Shown piece after piece: positions 382 through 5,388 of a stretch of 6,385 nucleotides of DNA. The translations under genes and the position numbers were made by a program. The DNA is from an uncultured archaeon (lineage in GTDB: Archaea > Asgardarchaeota > Jordiarchaeia > Jordiarchaeales > Jordiarchaeaceae): NCBI GenBank assembly GCA_964510585.1, contig CAZECW010000042.1, positions 1 through 6,385 of the forward strand. The letters run 5' to 3'. Under the pieces are notes generated by a model. It saw only the letters and a program-made list of their open reading frames with translations. It did no database searches and had not been told where the DNA came from. Position 1 is the first letter of the stretch, and every line of letters begins with the position of its first letter.

Positions 382-1668
382 ATGGAAAAGGTTGTGCGCA
401 TCTCCCAGATTGGGAATTATGTAGGTGAGTCTGTTCAAATCAGGGGTTGGATACACCTAAAAAGGGAGCATGGTAAACATATGCTCTTTTTGGTGGTTAG
501 AGATGGTACTGGTTTCATTCAGGTAGTGTTGAGAGATAATGTTAGGGGTTATGATGAGGTTTCCAAGAGTTATAGGGAGGCTGCGGTGATTATTACCGGA
601 AATGTTGTTGAGGATAAGAGGTCTCCTTACGGTTATGAGATAAGGGCGGAAAGTGTTAAGGTGGTTTCTCAATCTCAACCCACAATTGAGGAGGAGCTCC
701 AGCCAGATTCTTCAGTTGATGTGTTGCTGGACAAAAGGCACTTGGTCATTAGGGGAGAAAAGGCTTCGGCGGTGCTGCGCTATACTGATAAATTACTGCG
801 GTACATTAGGGAGTTCTGTGTGGAGAAGGGTTTAACCGAGGTTGTTCCCCCAATAATTACGAAGGCTGCCTGTGAGGGTGGGGCCACCCTTTTCCCAGTT
901 AAATATTTTGATGAGACTGCTTATCTTACCCAGTCTTCTCAGCTTTATTTGGAGGCGGTGCTTCCCGCTTTAGGTAACGTTTACTGTATTCAGAAATCTT
1001 TTCGGGCGGAACAGCATAGAACTAGGAGACATCTTTTGGAGTATTACCACTTTGAGCCGGAGCTGGCATTTATTGATTTTGAGGATTTAATTAGGTTTGC
1101 TGAGGAGAACATTATCCACATAGTTAAGAGGACTTTGGAGGAGGATTACAAGATTCTTGAATTGTTCGGTGTGGAGGATCTTGAGGTGCCCAGACAACCG
1201 TTTAAGAGATTGACCTATGCTGAGGCTTTAGAGTTCTTTAAATCTAGGGGTGTGGTCATCGAGCCGGGAATGGATATTGAGGAGTCCAAGGAGAGAATGC
1301 TTGTGGACTATTTTGGAGAGCCTGTTTTTCTAACAGAATTTCCAGCCGAGCAGAAGGCTTTTTACTTTAAGAGAAAGGAATCCGATGAAAGTGTGGCTCT
1401 AGCTATGGATTTGCTTGTTCCCACAGTGGGCGAAATCATTGGGGGAGGAATGAGGGAGGATGACTATGAAAAAATTATTTTGCGGCTGAAGGAAATAAAA
1501 GCTAACCTCGACGATTATCGCTGGTACACAGACTTTAGAAAATACGGCTCAGTCCCACACGGCGGCTACGGATTAGGCATAGAAAGAACCGTAGAATGGA
1601 TTCTGCGCCTGGAACACATTCGCGACGCCACCCTCTTCCCAAGATTCGTAAACAGACTACTACCCTAA
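382..1668 (+). CDS. asnS: Asparagine--tRNA ligase (class IIb AsnRS), 428 aa
   Basis: N-terminal OB fold (IRGWIH...FLVVRDGTGFIQVV), EGGATLF, YLTQSSQLYLE (Asn-type rather than AspRS QSPQLYKQ), motif 2 SFRAEQHRTRRHLLEYYHFEPE, GEIIGGGMRE, and motif 3 YGSVPHGGYGLGIER. Confidence 0.96.
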   Translation: MEKVVRISQIGNYVGESVQIRGWIHLKREHGKHMLFLVVRDGTGFIQVVLRDNVRGYDEVSKSYREAAVIITGNVVEDKRSPYGYEIRAESVKVVSQSQPTIEEELQPDSSVDVLLDKRHLVIRGEKASAVLRYTDKLLRYIREFCVEKGLTEVVPPIITKAACEGGATLFPVKYFDETAYLTQSSQLYLEAVLPALGNVYCIQKSFRAEQHRTRRHLLEYYHFEPELAFIDFEDLIRFAEENIIHIVKRTLEEDYKILELFGVEDLEVPRQPFKRLTYAEALEFFKSRGVVIEPGMDIEESKERMLVDYFGEPVFLTEFPAEQKAFYFKRKESDESVALAMDLLVPTVGEIIGGGMREDDYEKIILRLKEIKANLDDYRWYTDFRKYGSVPHGGYGLGIERTVEWILRLEHIRDATLFPRFVNRLLP

Positions 1669-1692
1669 CCATAAAGTGGTAGTTGTTTGTCT

Positions 1693-1712
1693 TGCGCCCC
1701 CTTTTAGGGTGC
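1693..1712 (+). terminator. Small hairpin downstream of asnS (possible terminator or processing signal)
   Basis: TGCGCCC-CTTTTA-GGGTGCA: 7-bp stem with one G:U pair, 24 nt after the asnS stop. No strong U-tract follows. Confidence 0.25.
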
Positions 1713-1756
1713 AGATAAGTCTTTAAACGCTTTAATCAAAATTTTTCTAAACCATT

Positions 1757-2536
1757 TTGGTAACCTGTTGCATGGTGATTGATTTGAGCTATGGGAAGCT
1801 TAAGAAGTATGATGCGCTCCTCAACGATTATCGGGAGCTTTATCACAGGGATGTTTTTGACTATGTTAAAGGAGTGGGGGTGACTAGTCAAATCGTCTCT
1901 CTTTCCAGGGAGCTGGAGGAGCACTATGAAAATAAGGCGCGAAGTGCTGATAGTTATTATTCTCCCCTGATGGAGGCAATTCGTGTTTTTTTCAAGTCTC
2001 AGAGGTGTCTTTTGGAGGTTTCAAACCGGCTTTTCAAAATGGGAATTAATGATTACCTTTTCAGTTTTGAAGATGAGCAATCTCTTAAAAAGGTTCGAAT
2101 GGGAAATAAAGTTTTGGAAATTGGTTCAGATCCTGACACGCAGAAAATAAGGGAGGTTTTGCTGGAAGTTTTAGAGCATATCGAACCGTGTTTGCCCGAG
2201 CTGAAGTCCGCCTCTAAAAAAATTTTGGGAGCTAAGGATAAGGACTTGAGCTCAATGTTAGAGGGGGCAACGAATCTTCTGAACTCTAAAATACACTTCT
2301 TTAACTCGCTGGTCAATATTCTGGAGGGAAAATTTGAAAATGCAATCTACGAATTGGAAGAATCCATCAAAAACATAGAGGGGGCAATAAAATCCGTTAA
2401 AACCAATTTAGACACGCCAGGCGAAGTTGAAAACGCCAAGAAAACAGAAGCCTACCTCAAACTAATAATTGATAACCACAAAAACTCCATCGCATCCATG
2501 AAGCAACTCATTTCAAAAAAGGGCAAAATGAGGTAA
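1757..2536 (+). CDS. Hypothetical alpha-helical protein (about 250-259 aa); true start more likely ATG 1772 or TTG 1784
   Basis: Long ORF with the same codon pattern as its neighbours. Rich in E/K/L with amphipathic helices. The C-terminal FFNSLVNILEGKFENAIYELEESI segment is loosely TPR or coiled-coil-like. GGTGAT (1774-1779) precedes TTG 1784. No family recognised. Confidence 0.8.
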   Translation: MVTCCMVIDLSYGKLKKYDALLNDYRELYHRDVFDYVKGVGVTSQIVSLSRELEEHYENKARSADSYYSPLMEAIRVFFKSQRCLLEVSNRLFKMGINDYLFSFEDEQSLKKVRMGNKVLEIGSDPDTQKIREVLLEVLEHIEPCLPELKSASKKILGAKDKDLSSMLEGATNLLNSKIHFFNSLVNILEGKFENAIYELEESIKNIEGAIKSVKTNLDTPGEVENAKKTEAYLKLIIDNHKNSIASMKQLISKKGKMR

Positions 2537-2543
2537 CCTACCC

Positions 2544-2604
2544 CAAAAGTGAGAAAAGTAATCAAAAATAGGCAGGTAACACGCACACTTTTCAAACACT
2601 TTTG
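2544..2604. repeat. Nested inverted repeat between convergent genes (possible bidirectional terminator or protein-binding site)
   Basis: CAAAAGTG (2544-2551) pairs with CACTTTTG (2597-2604), and GAAAAGT (2553-2559) pairs with ACTTTTC (2587-2593), around a 27-nt loop. Confidence 0.5.
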
Positions 2605-4241: not shown

Positions 4242-4407
4242 ACGAAGTCAGCCCACAAACTTAATGCAATCCTTTGGACTCTTTATTAATTGTATCCTCC
4301 AATCTTTTTAAATTATTGACGGCAGCCCCCTCACCCTTTCAAAAAGTTAATACGCAACTAACCCCTCTTAAAAGTGGCAATAATAGAAAAACAGTGGGGA
4401 GCCCACA

Positions 4408-4665
4408 TTGTATGCAGATAAAGCAAAAAAACTCCAAACCCTAAGAAACATTCTGATCGAAAAGGGGTTTCAAGTGAGACGCCACTGCTGCGAATACTTC
4501 CTAATCAAAAACAATAAATTCATAGGAGTCCTCTCACTATTTCCCAGCTGGAACCAAGCACTACTCGTCAGCACAAACAAGCAAGAATCCCAAAAAGTAT
4601 TCCCAGAAATTCTACAAATCATCAAAGAACTTTTCCCCGAGATAAAGGTAGAACTTCAAGGTTAA
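4408..4665 (+). CDS. Small hypothetical protein (85 aa) with an RRHCCEYF motif
   Basis: TTG start preceded by a GGGGAG RBS. Strongly C/A-ending codons as in neighbouring gene ends. Divergent from the trmB-family gene. No family recognised. Confidence 0.7.
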   Translation: MYADKAKKLQTLRNILIEKGFQVRRHCCEYFLIKNNKFIGVLSLFPSWNQALLVSTNKQESQKVFPEILQIIKELFPEIKVELQG

Positions 4666-4736
4666 ATAAACCAAAAACCATAATTGCTCACAAAATACTG
4701 GTTGCCTCTCAAATAAGGTAGAAGGGATGGAGACAC

Positions 4737-4982
4737 ATGGAGAAGAACGAAAATCAGGAGCAGAAGAAAAGAGTAAAAGCAATCAATATTGATCCAAGAC
4801 TATGTAAAGGCTGCGAACTATGCATACACTTCTGCCCCCAAGGCGTACTGGAAAAATCAAAAGAACCAAATGAGCAAGGCTACTATCCCCCAGTACCCGC
4901 CAACATAAAAAATTGCAAAGCTTGCAAACTCTGCGAATTATACTGCCCAGACTTCGCAATTTTTGTCGAGGAAGAAAACTAA
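4737..4982 (+). CDS. 2x[4Fe-4S] dicluster ferredoxin (KorD / 2-oxoacid:ferredoxin oxidoreductase delta-like), 81 aa
   Basis: Two CxxCxxCxxxCP motifs, CKGCELCIHFCP and CKACKLCELYCP. The N+QGYYP linker and CPDFAI ending are typical of delta subunits. GGAG RBS at 4729-4732. Confidence 0.92.
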   Translation: MEKNENQEQKKRVKAINIDPRLCKGCELCIHFCPQGVLEKSKEPNEQGYYPPVPANIKNCKACKLCELYCPDFAIFVEEEN

Positions 4983-4998
4983 TCGGTGGAAATCATCA

Positions 4999-5388
4999 TT
5001 GCAGCCTAACGTTTTTTATGAGGAAGAGGGTGAGGGCAAATATCGTGTTTGGACATATTTCTTCCTGATGGGTAATGACCTGGTGGTTGGAATCTGCGGA
5101 GGGGAGAAACCACACATAGGCGCCTTAGCCGTGGCAGAGCCCCGCCCAAGCAGAAATAAGCCGGGAGTCACATCATCAACCTCCTCCGTTATCACCCTGT
5201 ATGGCCACAAGGATGACATTGTGGCCCGCGAAGCCGCTGACAGTATAGCCAGAGAGACCAGTAGGACGGTCACCGTGACAGCAGGTATCCATGTAGAAAA
5301 CGCTACACAAAAAGAGATAGAAACACTACTGGAAAATTCGAGACGCCTAACCAAAAAAATCATAAAGAAAATTAATTCACTCACATAA
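4999..5388 (+). CDS. LpdD-like / proteasome assembly chaperone 4 (PAC4)-like protein, about 129 aa
   Basis: Family motifs GNDLVVGICGGEKPHIGALAVA, GHKDDIVAREAA and VTVTAGIHVENAT..EI. The start is reassigned from 4963, which overlaps the ferredoxin, to TTG 4999, which has a GGTGGA RBS at 4985-4990. Confidence 0.75.
   Translation: MQPNVFYEEEGEGKYRVWTYFFLMGNDLVVGICGGEKPHIGALAVAEPRPSRNKPGVTSSTSSVITLYGHKDDIVAREAADSIARETSRTVTVTAGIHVENATQKEIETLLENSRRLTKKIIKKINSLT

What the first reader, a model, noticed from the sequence alone, without database searches (positions are those of the whole stretch)
382..5388. Intragenic codon-ending gradient: G/T-ending codons at 5' ends, C/A-ending at 3' ends, on both strands
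Hand counts of G/T-ending codons. asnS: 49/60 at 481-660 versus 10/55 at 1501-1665. ORF 1757: 29/40 from 1802 versus 10/40 from 2402. Methyltransferase (minus): 15/21 near 3300-3240 versus 4/20 near 2760-2700. TrmB-family (minus): 28/40 at the start versus 5/20 at 3600-3541, weaker at 10/20 in the last stretch before the co-transcribed gene. ORF 4999: 15/20 versus 6/20. The plus strand therefore shows a sawtooth keto skew that resets from C/A to G/T at several intergenic points (about 1670, 2630 and 4985), including a convergent junction. Much of it is synonymous (GAG to GAA, TAT to TAC), so protein composition does not explain it. The direction matches ssDNA deamination (C>T, A>G) gradients like those beside replication origins, but at about 1-kb scale. 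Possible causes are many intergenic initiation or unwinding sites, chromatin-linked or transcription-linked mutation, or selection on mRNA structure. I do not know of a description of this pattern.
Basis: partly seen in the sequence, partly recalled or inferred. Interest (0 to 1): 0.7.

Follow-up and report, generated by a model that had tools for sequence, protein, structure and literature searches.

The report
Transcription-unit strand-skew sawtooth in Asgard archaeon
In this Asgard archaeon (Freyarchaeia/Jordarchaeia) and its genus, the coding strand of each transcription unit runs from G+T-rich at the start to A+C-rich at the end, untranslated flanks included. This looks like the footprint of a strand-specific process tied to transcription units, and I found no description of it for archaea in the papers I could search.

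Summary
The four large genes each give a permutation p below 5e-5.

- **Scope:** the window is contig C42, the most extreme contig of a genome-wide pattern. G/T-ending codons fall from 0.53 to 0.39 along genes, and from 0.52 to 0.38 at fourfold sites.
- **Independent support:** three other genomes of the genus show it, including the complete chromosome CP147778.1. It is weak in the sister family and absent from five other Asgard genomes and from mixed controls.
- **Not a codon or translation effect:**
  - The skew continues 50-100 nt past stop codons and upstream of start codons.
  - It does not reset between tightly packed genes (gap 30 nt or less). It resets only at larger gaps, most strongly between convergent genes.
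  - It spans operons of two or three genes, and the middle of long spacers is neutral.
- **Shape:** sharp A/C-to-G/T flips outnumber the reverse about 4:1 and often sit at A-run|T-run terminator pairs.
- **Substitution test:** against a sister species, the flux of skew-changing substitutions rejects simple extra ssDNA deamination. It fits a directional fixation bias or a reallocation of mutation and repair between strands.
- **Mechanism:** unresolved. My best guess is a transcription-coupled asymmetry.
- **Earlier scan notes:** the scan had already noted sharp flips in this genome (e1-5396728) and similar sawteeth in other archaea.

The parts
382..1491 (+). asnS (asparaginyl-tRNA synthetase), 5' 370 codons: G/T-ending domain, GT3 0.71
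   Evidence: Pfam tRNA-synt_2 E=3e-71; change point after codon 370, LLR 30.6; counts per 20 codons
1492..1700 (+). asnS last 58 codons plus the start of the spacer: A/C-rich domain, GT3 0.17. The plus strand turns back to G+T-rich within the 88-nt spacer before ORF 1757
   Evidence: plus-strand keto fraction 44% at 1501-1700 against 59% at 1701-1800
1757..2326 (+). ORF 1757 (259 aa, no Pfam family, conserved in relatives), 5' 190 codons: G/T-ending, GT3 0.68
2327..2620 (+). ORF 1757 3' part plus 84 nt after its stop: A/C-rich (GT3 0.26). It ends at the sharp up-flip at 2620, directly before a T-run at 2621-2625
   Evidence: the one flip in C42 with step >= 0.5 at window 200; sequence of the convergent spacer
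2645..3201 (-). SAM-dependent methyltransferase, 3' two thirds: A/C-ending on its own coding strand (GT3 0.31), so G+T-rich on the plus strand
   Evidence: Pfam Methyltransf_11 E=4e-19; change point after codon 83
3202..3451 (-). Methyltransferase, 5' 83 codons: G/T-ending, GT3 0.62
3471..4000 (-). TrmB-family regulator, 3' part: GT3 0.43. Only a partial reset across the 19-nt gap to the methyltransferase gene
   Evidence: Pfam TrmB E=9e-23
4001..4241 (-). TrmB-family regulator, 5' 80 codons: G/T-ending, GT3 0.72
4408..4982 (+). ORF 4408 (85 aa, conserved, no family) and ferredoxin: A/C-ending almost throughout (GT3 0.16 after the first roughly 20 codons of each)
4999..5388 (+). PAC_bac (proteasome-assembly-chaperone-like) gene: GT3 0.72 for 30 codons, then 0.31. 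The A/C-rich stretch continues past the stop
   Evidence: Pfam PF21758 E=4e-36; real start near 4999-5011

Best explanation
The window shows, in extreme form, a strand-composition asymmetry anchored on transcription units. It is specific to this lineage.

What the pattern is:
- In this Freyarchaeia/Jordarchaeia genus the coding strand of each transcription unit goes from G+T-rich to A+C-rich. The G+T-rich part covers the 5' flank and the first codons. The A+C-rich part covers the 3' part and the 3' untranslated stretch, often up to a T-run (inferred terminator).
- Because G+T and A+C are complementary classes, either DNA strand read left to right shows the same sawtooth. The skew declines gradually inside each unit and flips sharply upward where one unit ends and the next begins.

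Shown here:
- The force acts on nucleotides, not codons.
- It follows unit boundaries rather than ORF boundaries.
- It leaves spacer middles neutral.
- It has been maintained in two species across about 27% fourfold-site divergence.
- It behaves like a directional bias: keto-to-amino changes and the reverse are shifted reciprocally. It does not behave like added mutation input.

Inferred (my preferred mechanism, about even odds): a transcription-coupled asymmetry of mutation and repair between template and non-template strand. Its sign differs between the initiation-proximal and termination-proximal parts of a unit. This would be an archaeal counterpart of the opposite gene-end skews of unicellular fungi.
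For: - **Genome-wide gradient.** GT3 falls from 0.530 to 0.392 by decile, and from 0.517 to 0.380 at fourfold sites. It is weaker but in the same direction at codon positions 1 and 2. 75% of 2111 long ORFs are positive, and the per-gene spread is 2.5 times the shuffle spread.
- **Continues into non-coding DNA.** Genes whose last 100 codons have GT3 below 0.25 show skew of -0.42, -0.28, -0.19 and -0.15 in successive 25-nt bins after the stop. Spearman rho is 0.53 for 3-50 nt. Upstream of starts rho is 0.42 at -50..-3 and 0.25 at -150..-100.
- **Tied to transcription units.** The plus-strand GT3 step at tandem junctions is -0.01 (gap <=5), +0.01 (6-30), +0.10 (31-80), +0.13 (81-200) and +0.16 (>200). 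Convergent junctions give +0.12 to +0.30 and divergent ones -0.06 to +0.05.
- **Same rule in two more genomes.** It holds in the complete same-genus chromosome G005 and in G003, and not in the controls. The decline is monotonic across units of 1, 2 and 3 genes.
- **Neutral spacers.** The middle 60% of long spacers is unskewed.
- **Sawtooth shape.** 243 sharp up-flips against 58 down-flips. 73% of up-flips lie at gene junctions, against 24% of random positions. Convergent junctions are the most enriched, 62 of 546. Many of the strongest lie at A-run|T-run.
- **Mirror-image extremes.** GT3 below 0.2 gives A .50, C .37, G .07, T .06. GT3 above 0.8 gives T .49, G .36, C .07, A .075. GC3 stays constant, and the GC3 and TA3 skews correlate at r=0.57.
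- **Substitution flux.** Across 37,087 fourfold sites (G000 versus G003), keto-changing substitutions are 0.52, 0.79 and 0.86 of baseline on the A/C side and 1.00, 0.87 and 0.89 on the G/T side. Keto-preserving transversions stay at 0.93-1.23. A fixation-bias model predicts 0.42-0.94 and an added-rate model predicts 1.29-1.84. Within genes the rates are 0.160 against 0.212, lower in 17 of 25 genes, p=0.0096.
- **Lineage.** The first-minus-last-third difference is 0.055-0.087 in four genomes of the genus, 0.03-0.04 in the sister family, and about 0 in the other Asgard genomes and mixed controls (G013 +0.025).
Against: - A single transcription-coupled process does not by itself explain why the sign inverts along a unit.
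- The classical non-template-strand deamination model predicts a G+T-rich coding strand everywhere. It also predicts the largest step at divergent promoters, where the observed step is smallest.
- Antisense transcription from 3' ends would repair the model. TATA-like motifs are not enriched in antisense orientation after stop codons (a weak test). No RNA data could be laid.
- The large ribosomal-protein cluster on C16, presumably highly transcribed, is nearly unskewed (one case).
- 146 of 810 significant intragenic change points run the other way. 46 sharp flips lie inside ORFs.
- The flux test fits natural selection on composition equally well.
Confidence: 0.45

Rival explanations
1. Natural selection on the transcript or on the DNA of the unit. 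The 5' parts would be kept G+U-rich. The 3' parts and 3' UTRs would be kept A+C-rich, hence unstructured and G/U-poor up to the U-tract. Possible reasons are termination, decay or long-range 5'-3' pairing.
For: - The skew is confined to genes plus about 50-75 nt of flank, and spacer middles are neutral.
- It often ends at T-runs.
- The flux of all keto-changing substitutions is reduced by close to the amounts a fixation bias predicts. Transversions fall by the same factor as transitions on the A/C side (0.016 against 0.030). Keto-preserving changes are unaffected.
- Domains are shared by two species despite about 27% fourfold divergence.
Against: - It needs weak selection at tens of thousands of silent and untranslated sites in organisms I assume (not measured) to be slow-growing and of modest population size.
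- The G/T-rich and A/C-rich extremes are exact strand mirrors.
- Some genes run the opposite way or flip sharply inside ORFs.
- Neighbouring gene ends share plus-strand skew across convergent junctions, rho 0.28-0.44. Selection on separate transcripts does not predict this.
- T-runs and A-runs are not specially avoided or enriched beyond what composition predicts.
- The ribosomal-protein cluster lacks the skew.
Confidence: 0.3
2. A polar DNA-synthesis process (local replication, recombination-dependent or repair synthesis) that starts at unit boundaries and runs into the genes. This would be like origin-centred skew jumps at kilobase scale.
For: - Up-flips have the polarity of a bidirectional origin and outnumber down-flips about 4:1.
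- The pattern is invariant to gene orientation.
- A model that only reallocates a constant mutation input between strands predicts reduced flux, as observed.
- Other archaeal genomes in this scan show similar sawteeth anchored on other features (untested here).
Against: - Spacer middles are neutral rather than maximally skewed next to a point source.
- There is no reset at short gaps.
- Step size depends on gene orientation: convergent > tandem > divergent.
- The published cumulative GC skew of the complete genome of this genus fits one bidirectional origin (PMC11291895).
- Per-gene plus-strand skew loses correlation after one gene: lag 1 r=0.23, lag 2 r=0.03.
- Observed flux is above the polarity-only prediction (0.52 against 0.29 in the most extreme class).
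Confidence: 0.12
3. Extra single-strand deamination (C>T, A>G) on whichever strand is exposed, adding mutations locally.
For: - G+T enrichment with constant GC3 and purine content is the direction expected from combined C and A deamination.
- The source community is a hot spring.
Against: - It predicts 1.3-1.8 times more keto-changing substitutions in skewed stretches. Observed values are 0.52-1.0 times.
- A wetland-soil member of the genus shows nearly the same effect.
Confidence: 0.05
4. A translational effect: a ramp of wobble-decoded (G/U-ending) codons early and Watson-Crick-decoded (C/A-ending) codons late in each ORF.
For: G/T-ending codons are those that G34 or U34 tRNAs read by wobble (textbook knowledge). 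Intragenic codon-bias gradients are known from the literature (my own knowledge, not checked here).
Against: - The skew continues into untranslated flanks.
- There is no reset at ORF boundaries with gaps of 30 nt or less.
- Codon positions 1 and 2 shift as well.
- GT3 reaches 0.7-0.85 over hundreds of codons.
Confidence: 0.03
5. An artefact of assembly, binning or a chimeric contig.
For: The genome is a 217-contig metagenome bin with 4.8% estimated contamination. The window is flanked by high-copy repeats.
Against: - ORFs are intact with strong family matches.
- Contigs of two other studies carry the same sequence.
- Synteny and skew domains are shared with three related assemblies.
- The effect is present in a manually curated complete chromosome.
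Confidence: 0.01

Closest known systems
[quoted passage not shown]
   Same: Skew of opposite sign at the two gene ends, with intermediate values between. It is seen at fourfold sites, extends into promoters and 3' UTRs, shifts amino-acid usage, varies between related species, and has an unresolved cause (mutational or adaptive).
   Different: - In fungi the coding strand is C-biased at the 5' end and G-biased at the 3' end, the opposite sign.
- In fungi AT skew is flat along genes. Here T/A changes more than G/C and the two skews move together as a keto skew.
- Here the unit is the operon, and local intensity reaches 85-92% of silent sites.
Transcription-associated strand asymmetry of mammals and bacteria (excess G+T on the non-template strand; my own knowledge plus the reviews listed)
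   Same: G+T excess on the coding strand near the 5' end, and confinement to transcribed DNA.
   Different: The sign inverts in the 3' part. The largest steps are at convergent junctions, not divergent ones. The substitution flux is reduced, not raised.
[quoted passage not shown] 2021, PMC8256042)
   Same: Intense, abruptly changing and positively correlated GC and TA skews that recode protein genes in G+T or A+C. Mechanism unknown.
   Different: GRINS are by definition duplicated regions (>80% identity) that undergo gene conversion in a few gene clusters. The window is single-copy in its genome. The pattern here is genome-wide and ordered by transcription units.
Replication-associated skew, including the sawtooth skew domains of mammalian genomes (my own knowledge)
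   Same: Sharp upward jumps and gradual declines of keto skew on either strand. Same polarity as at origins.
   Different: Kilobase rather than megabase scale. Tied to unit boundaries, with neutral spacers and no longer-range correlation.

Membership tests
Replication-origin/terminus strand skew | Skew sign constant over a replichore and switching only at origin and terminus | tested here: not met
   Per-gene plus-strand GT3 autocorrelation is 0.23 at lag 1, 0.03 at lag 2 and about 0 beyond. There are 243 sharp up-flips in 3.8 Mb.
Replication-origin/terminus strand skew | Skew greatest next to the initiation point | tested here: not met
   The middle of long spacers is unskewed. The skew begins about 25-75 nt from the genes.
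GRINS | Mean absolute GC and TA skews above 0.15, positively correlated | tested here: met
   GC3 and TA3 skews correlate at r=0.57. Extremes hold 85-92% keto or amino bases at third positions.
GRINS | Region over 500 bp duplicated at over 80% identity nearby (gene conversion) | tested here: not met
   Window 300-6100 matches only itself in the genome. No repeat over 28 nt lies inside the window.
Fungal-type opposite gene-end skews | Opposite skew sign at the 5' and 3' ends, at fourfold sites, extending into flanks | tested here: met
Fungal-type opposite gene-end skews | C-biased 5' end and G-biased 3' end, with AT skew flat along the gene | tested here: not met
   G3 falls from 0.226 to 0.190 and C3 rises from 0.181 to 0.228. 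T3 falls from 0.304 to 0.202 and A3 rises from 0.289 to 0.380.
Translational ramp / codon-optimality gradient | Confined to ORFs and restarting at each start codon | tested here: not met
   Skew is present in untranslated flanks. There is no reset at gaps of 30 nt or less.
Classical transcription-associated mutational asymmetry | Non-template strand G+T-rich over the whole transcribed region | tested here: not met
   True only for roughly the first 20-30% of units. The mean coding-strand GT3 is 0.47, falling to 0.37 at the 3' end.
Classical transcription-associated mutational asymmetry | Domain edges coincide with mapped transcript starts and ends; strength scales with expression | not testable with these tools
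   No RNA holder was listed and only assembled contigs were available.

The most novel reading that the evidence does not exclude
Freyarchaeia, members of the Asgard archaea (the group from which eukaryotes are thought to have arisen), carry a transcription-coupled mutation and repair regime whose strand polarity inverts between the start and the end of each transcription unit. This would be a gene-end polarity otherwise described only in eukaryotes (fungi), here far stronger and acting on both base pairs. Alternatively, the sawtooth is the footprint of an undescribed polar nucleic-acid transaction at unit ends, for example R-loop-prone antisense transcription or RNA-templated conversion from transcript 3' ends.
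Probability: 0.3. Interest if true: 0.85.

Novelty: new variant of a known kind. Interest (0 to 1): 0.66.

Why it matters
- **A mutation or selection regime without a described precedent.** A force strong enough to drive up to 85-92% of silent sites to one base class, in an ordered way along every transcription unit, reshapes codon usage and even amino-acid composition in a whole genus. I found no such regime described for archaea or bacteria in the searchable papers.
- **Practical consequences.** It distorts codon-usage, gene-finding, horizontal-transfer and skew-based origin analyses of these genomes. In exchange it offers a sequence-only way to read transcription-unit boundaries in uncultured Asgard archaea.
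- **Evolutionary interest.** If it is transcription-coupled, it gives a handle on how archaeal transcription, termination and repair treat the two strands, in the lineage closest to eukaryotes. The nearest analogue, opposite gene-end skews in fungi, is itself unexplained.

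Tried and rejected
- **RNA evidence.** No RNA holder was listed for the window, and all runs were available only as assembled contigs. 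Transcript ends, strand and antisense RNA could not be examined.
- **Strain variants.** Laying contigs gave a 2.8%-diverged strain. Only 40 of 153 differences were printed. Polarised with two outgroups they give 10 keto gains and 8 losses inside G/T-rich domains, too few to separate a 1:1 from a 7:3 expectation.
- **Polarised substitutions in the window** among three relatives. Gains about equal losses in every domain class, but counts are small.
- **tRNA-anchored flips.** ARAGORN finds only 6 tRNA genes in this genome. A published study of same-genus genomes reports introns in most tRNA genes, which may be why. Nothing could be concluded.
- **Antisense promoters.** TATA-like motifs are not enriched in antisense orientation after stop codons. 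Even the sense promoter signal is weak in this scan.
- **Terminator-run selection.** T5 and A5 runs track composition, with observed/shuffled about 1.4-2.0 in all deciles. There is no special avoidance or enrichment.
- **Junctions as two-sided sources.** Skews on the two sides of a junction correlate positively on the plus strand. Jitter of the flip position can explain this, so it did not discriminate between models.
- **Expression.** Only one presumably highly expressed cluster (ribosomal proteins, C16) was looked at. It is nearly unskewed.
- **Literature.** Six searches found no description of this pattern in archaea. Subscription journals are largely outside the library.

Full report
**Where the window lies.** The window is contig C42 of a 3.78-Mb, 217-contig metagenome bin. 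Its genes are:
- asnS
- a conserved ORF of 259 aa
- a SAM-dependent methyltransferase
- a TrmB-family regulator
- a conserved 85-aa ORF
- a ferredoxin
- a PAC_bac chaperone-like protein

The closest public records are hot-spring bins labelled Candidatus Freyarchaeota or Jordarchaeia. The complete wetland chromosome CP147778.1 belongs to the same genus.

**Checking the observation.**
- Within-gene shuffles never reach the observed first-third versus last-third difference for the four large genes (0 of 20,000 each). The two small genes give p about 0.02, and ORF 4408 is A/C-ending throughout.
- In single genes the change is step-like, for example asnS 0.71 to 0.17 after codon 370.
- The window interior is single-copy. 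Contigs of two other hot-spring studies lie on most of it with 0-4 differences per piece.

**Genome-wide scope.**
- I called 3060 genes with a simple ORF and codon-score method. A wrong strand call cannot create the pattern, because a G+T-to-A+C decline reads the same on either strand.
- The G/T-ending fraction falls monotonically from 0.530 to 0.392 by gene decile. At fourfold sites it falls from 0.517 to 0.380. In both twofold classes and at codon positions 1 and 2 it shifts weakly the same way.
- 75% of long ORFs are positive, and the per-gene spread is 0.157 against 0.063 for shuffles. C42 is the most extreme contig.
- 38.7% of genes of 200 codons or more have a change point beyond the 1% null: 664 from G/T to A/C and 146 the other way.
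- Sixty-codon segments have a standard deviation of 0.148, against 0.064 expected from a binomial.
  - 427 segments lie below 0.2 and 244 above 0.8, where none are expected.
  - The two extremes are strand mirrors at constant GC3.

**Lineage distribution.**

| Genomes | First-minus-last-third difference |
|---|---|
| Four genomes of the genus (G000, G005 complete, G003, G002) | 0.055-0.087 |
| Sister family (two genomes) | 0.03-0.04 |
| G013 (other Asgard) | +0.025 |
| Four other Asgard genomes, and a mix of Bathyarchaeia and bacteria | -0.011 to +0.005 |

In the unaffected genomes the spread is close to the shuffle value. The method is therefore not producing the signal, and the signal is not an assembly artefact.

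**Anatomy.**
- *Flanks.* The skew does not stop at the ORF. After stop codons it continues and decays over about 100 nt (rho 0.53 with the last 100 codons). Upstream of start codons it also extends (rho 0.42).
- *Junctions.* It does not restart at each ORF.
  - Tandem junctions with gaps of 30 nt or less show no step (-0.01, +0.01). Larger gaps show +0.10 to +0.16.
  - Convergent junctions show +0.12 to +0.30, and divergent ones about 0 to +0.05.
  - G005 and G003 follow the same rule, and the controls do not.
- *Operons.* Across runs of 1, 2 or 3 tightly packed genes the decline is continuous.
- *Spacers.* In long spacers the middle 60% is neutral.
- *Flips.*
  - Sharp A/C-to-G/T flips outnumber the reverse 243 to 58.
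  - They lie at junctions 73% of the time against 24% for random positions, and they favour convergent junctions.
  - Many of the strongest sit at an A-run followed by a T-run, which I read as back-to-back terminators (inference).
- *Range.* The per-gene plus-strand skew loses correlation after one gene, so no replichore effect is mixed in.

**What this excludes.**
- A translational ramp is excluded by the untranslated flanks and by the missing reset at ORF boundaries.
- Point-like initiation sites in spacers are unlikely, given the neutral spacer middles and the dependence of the step on gene orientation.
- An artefact is excluded by the independent genomes and runs.

**Mutation or selection.** I aligned 298 genes to the sister species G003 (37,087 fourfold sites; about 27% fourfold divergence in the first 80-gene comparison). 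The skew is shared by both species: fourfold keto 0.09 and 0.11 in the A/C extreme, 0.84 and 0.82 in the G/T extreme.

| Quantity, relative to unskewed stretches | A/C side | G/T side |
|---|---|---|
| Observed keto-changing substitutions | 0.52, 0.79, 0.86 | 1.00, 0.87, 0.89 |
| Added-rate model (extra deamination) | 1.84, 1.59, 1.39 | 1.29, 1.51, 1.70 |
| Fixation-bias model | 0.42, 0.75, 0.89 | 0.94, 0.82, 0.63 |
| Strand-reallocation model (constant total input) | 0.29, 0.65, 0.85 | 0.92, 0.74, 0.51 |

- Keto-preserving transversions stay at 0.93-1.23.
- The within-gene comparison agrees (0.160 against 0.212, p=0.0096).
- Simple added deamination is therefore rejected.
- The test cannot separate selection, conversion-like bias, or a reciprocal shift of mutation and repair between strands.

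**Mechanism.** I favour a transcription-coupled asymmetry whose sign differs between the initiation-proximal and termination-proximal parts of the unit (confidence 0.45).

In favour:
- The domains are bounded like transcripts.
- The extremes are strand mirrors.
- The trait is lineage-specific, as expected from a change in a DNA-transaction or repair system.

Open problems:
- The sign inversion is unexplained.
- The step at divergent promoters is small.
- There is no motif evidence for antisense promoters.
- The ribosomal-protein cluster is unskewed.

Selection on transcript composition is the main rival (0.3).

**Comparison with what is known.**
- The nearest description is the opposite GC skews at gene ends in unicellular fungi (PMC3315797). 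The architecture and the unresolved cause are the same. The sign is opposite and the AT skew is flat there.
- GRINS (PMC8256042) share the intense, correlated GC and TA skews but are defined as duplicated, converting regions. That feature is not met here.
- The paper on the complete Freyarchaeia genome reports only chromosome-scale cumulative GC skew (PMC11291895).
- Earlier notes of this scan had already found sharp same-direction flips in this genome (e1-5396728) and sawteeth in other archaea. My flip counts agree with the former. The transcription-unit rule, the flank and spacer behaviour, the lineage map and the flux test are added here.

**Verdict.** It is a new variant of gene- or transcription-associated strand asymmetry. 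The mechanism is open.

Noticed in passing
window 6240-6385 and 1-213: Both window ends are high-copy repeats. 6240-6385 matches at least 40 places in the genome at 98-100% identity, mostly at contig ends. Summed metagenome contig depth is about 750-14,000 in the last bin (6178-6385) and about 60-940 in the first bin (1-213), against mostly 5-40 or less inside. This is probably a mobile element or MITE that fragments the assembly.
   Followed up: partly
G000:C98:30450-35918 and window 1-381: In the relatives L002 and L003 the genes at the end of contig C98 lie directly upstream of asnS. C98 and C42 are therefore neighbours on the chromosome, separated by the repeat.
   Followed up: no
window 4408-4665 and 1757-2536: Two ORFs without any Pfam family (85 aa and 259 aa) are conserved in position and sequence across the genus, at 61-96% identity. 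They are real genes of unknown function.
   Followed up: no
window 5395-5535: A strain 2.8% diverged from the window (run X4) carries a cluster of small insertions and deletions in the A/C-rich stretch after the PAC gene. This fits the stretch being untranslated.
   Followed up: no
G000:C58:4811, C196:14754, C20:8677, C177:27105, C173:24497: Sharp A/C-to-G/T flips lie in the middle of intact ORFs, with no spacer. They do not fit the transcription-unit rule and may mark internal promoters, internal terminators or recent rearrangements.
   Followed up: no
G000:C16:3742-8666: The large ribosomal-protein gene cluster (L14 at 5997-6356) is almost free of the skew, with GT3 of 0.38-0.64 and no trend, unlike most of the genome.
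   Followed up: partly
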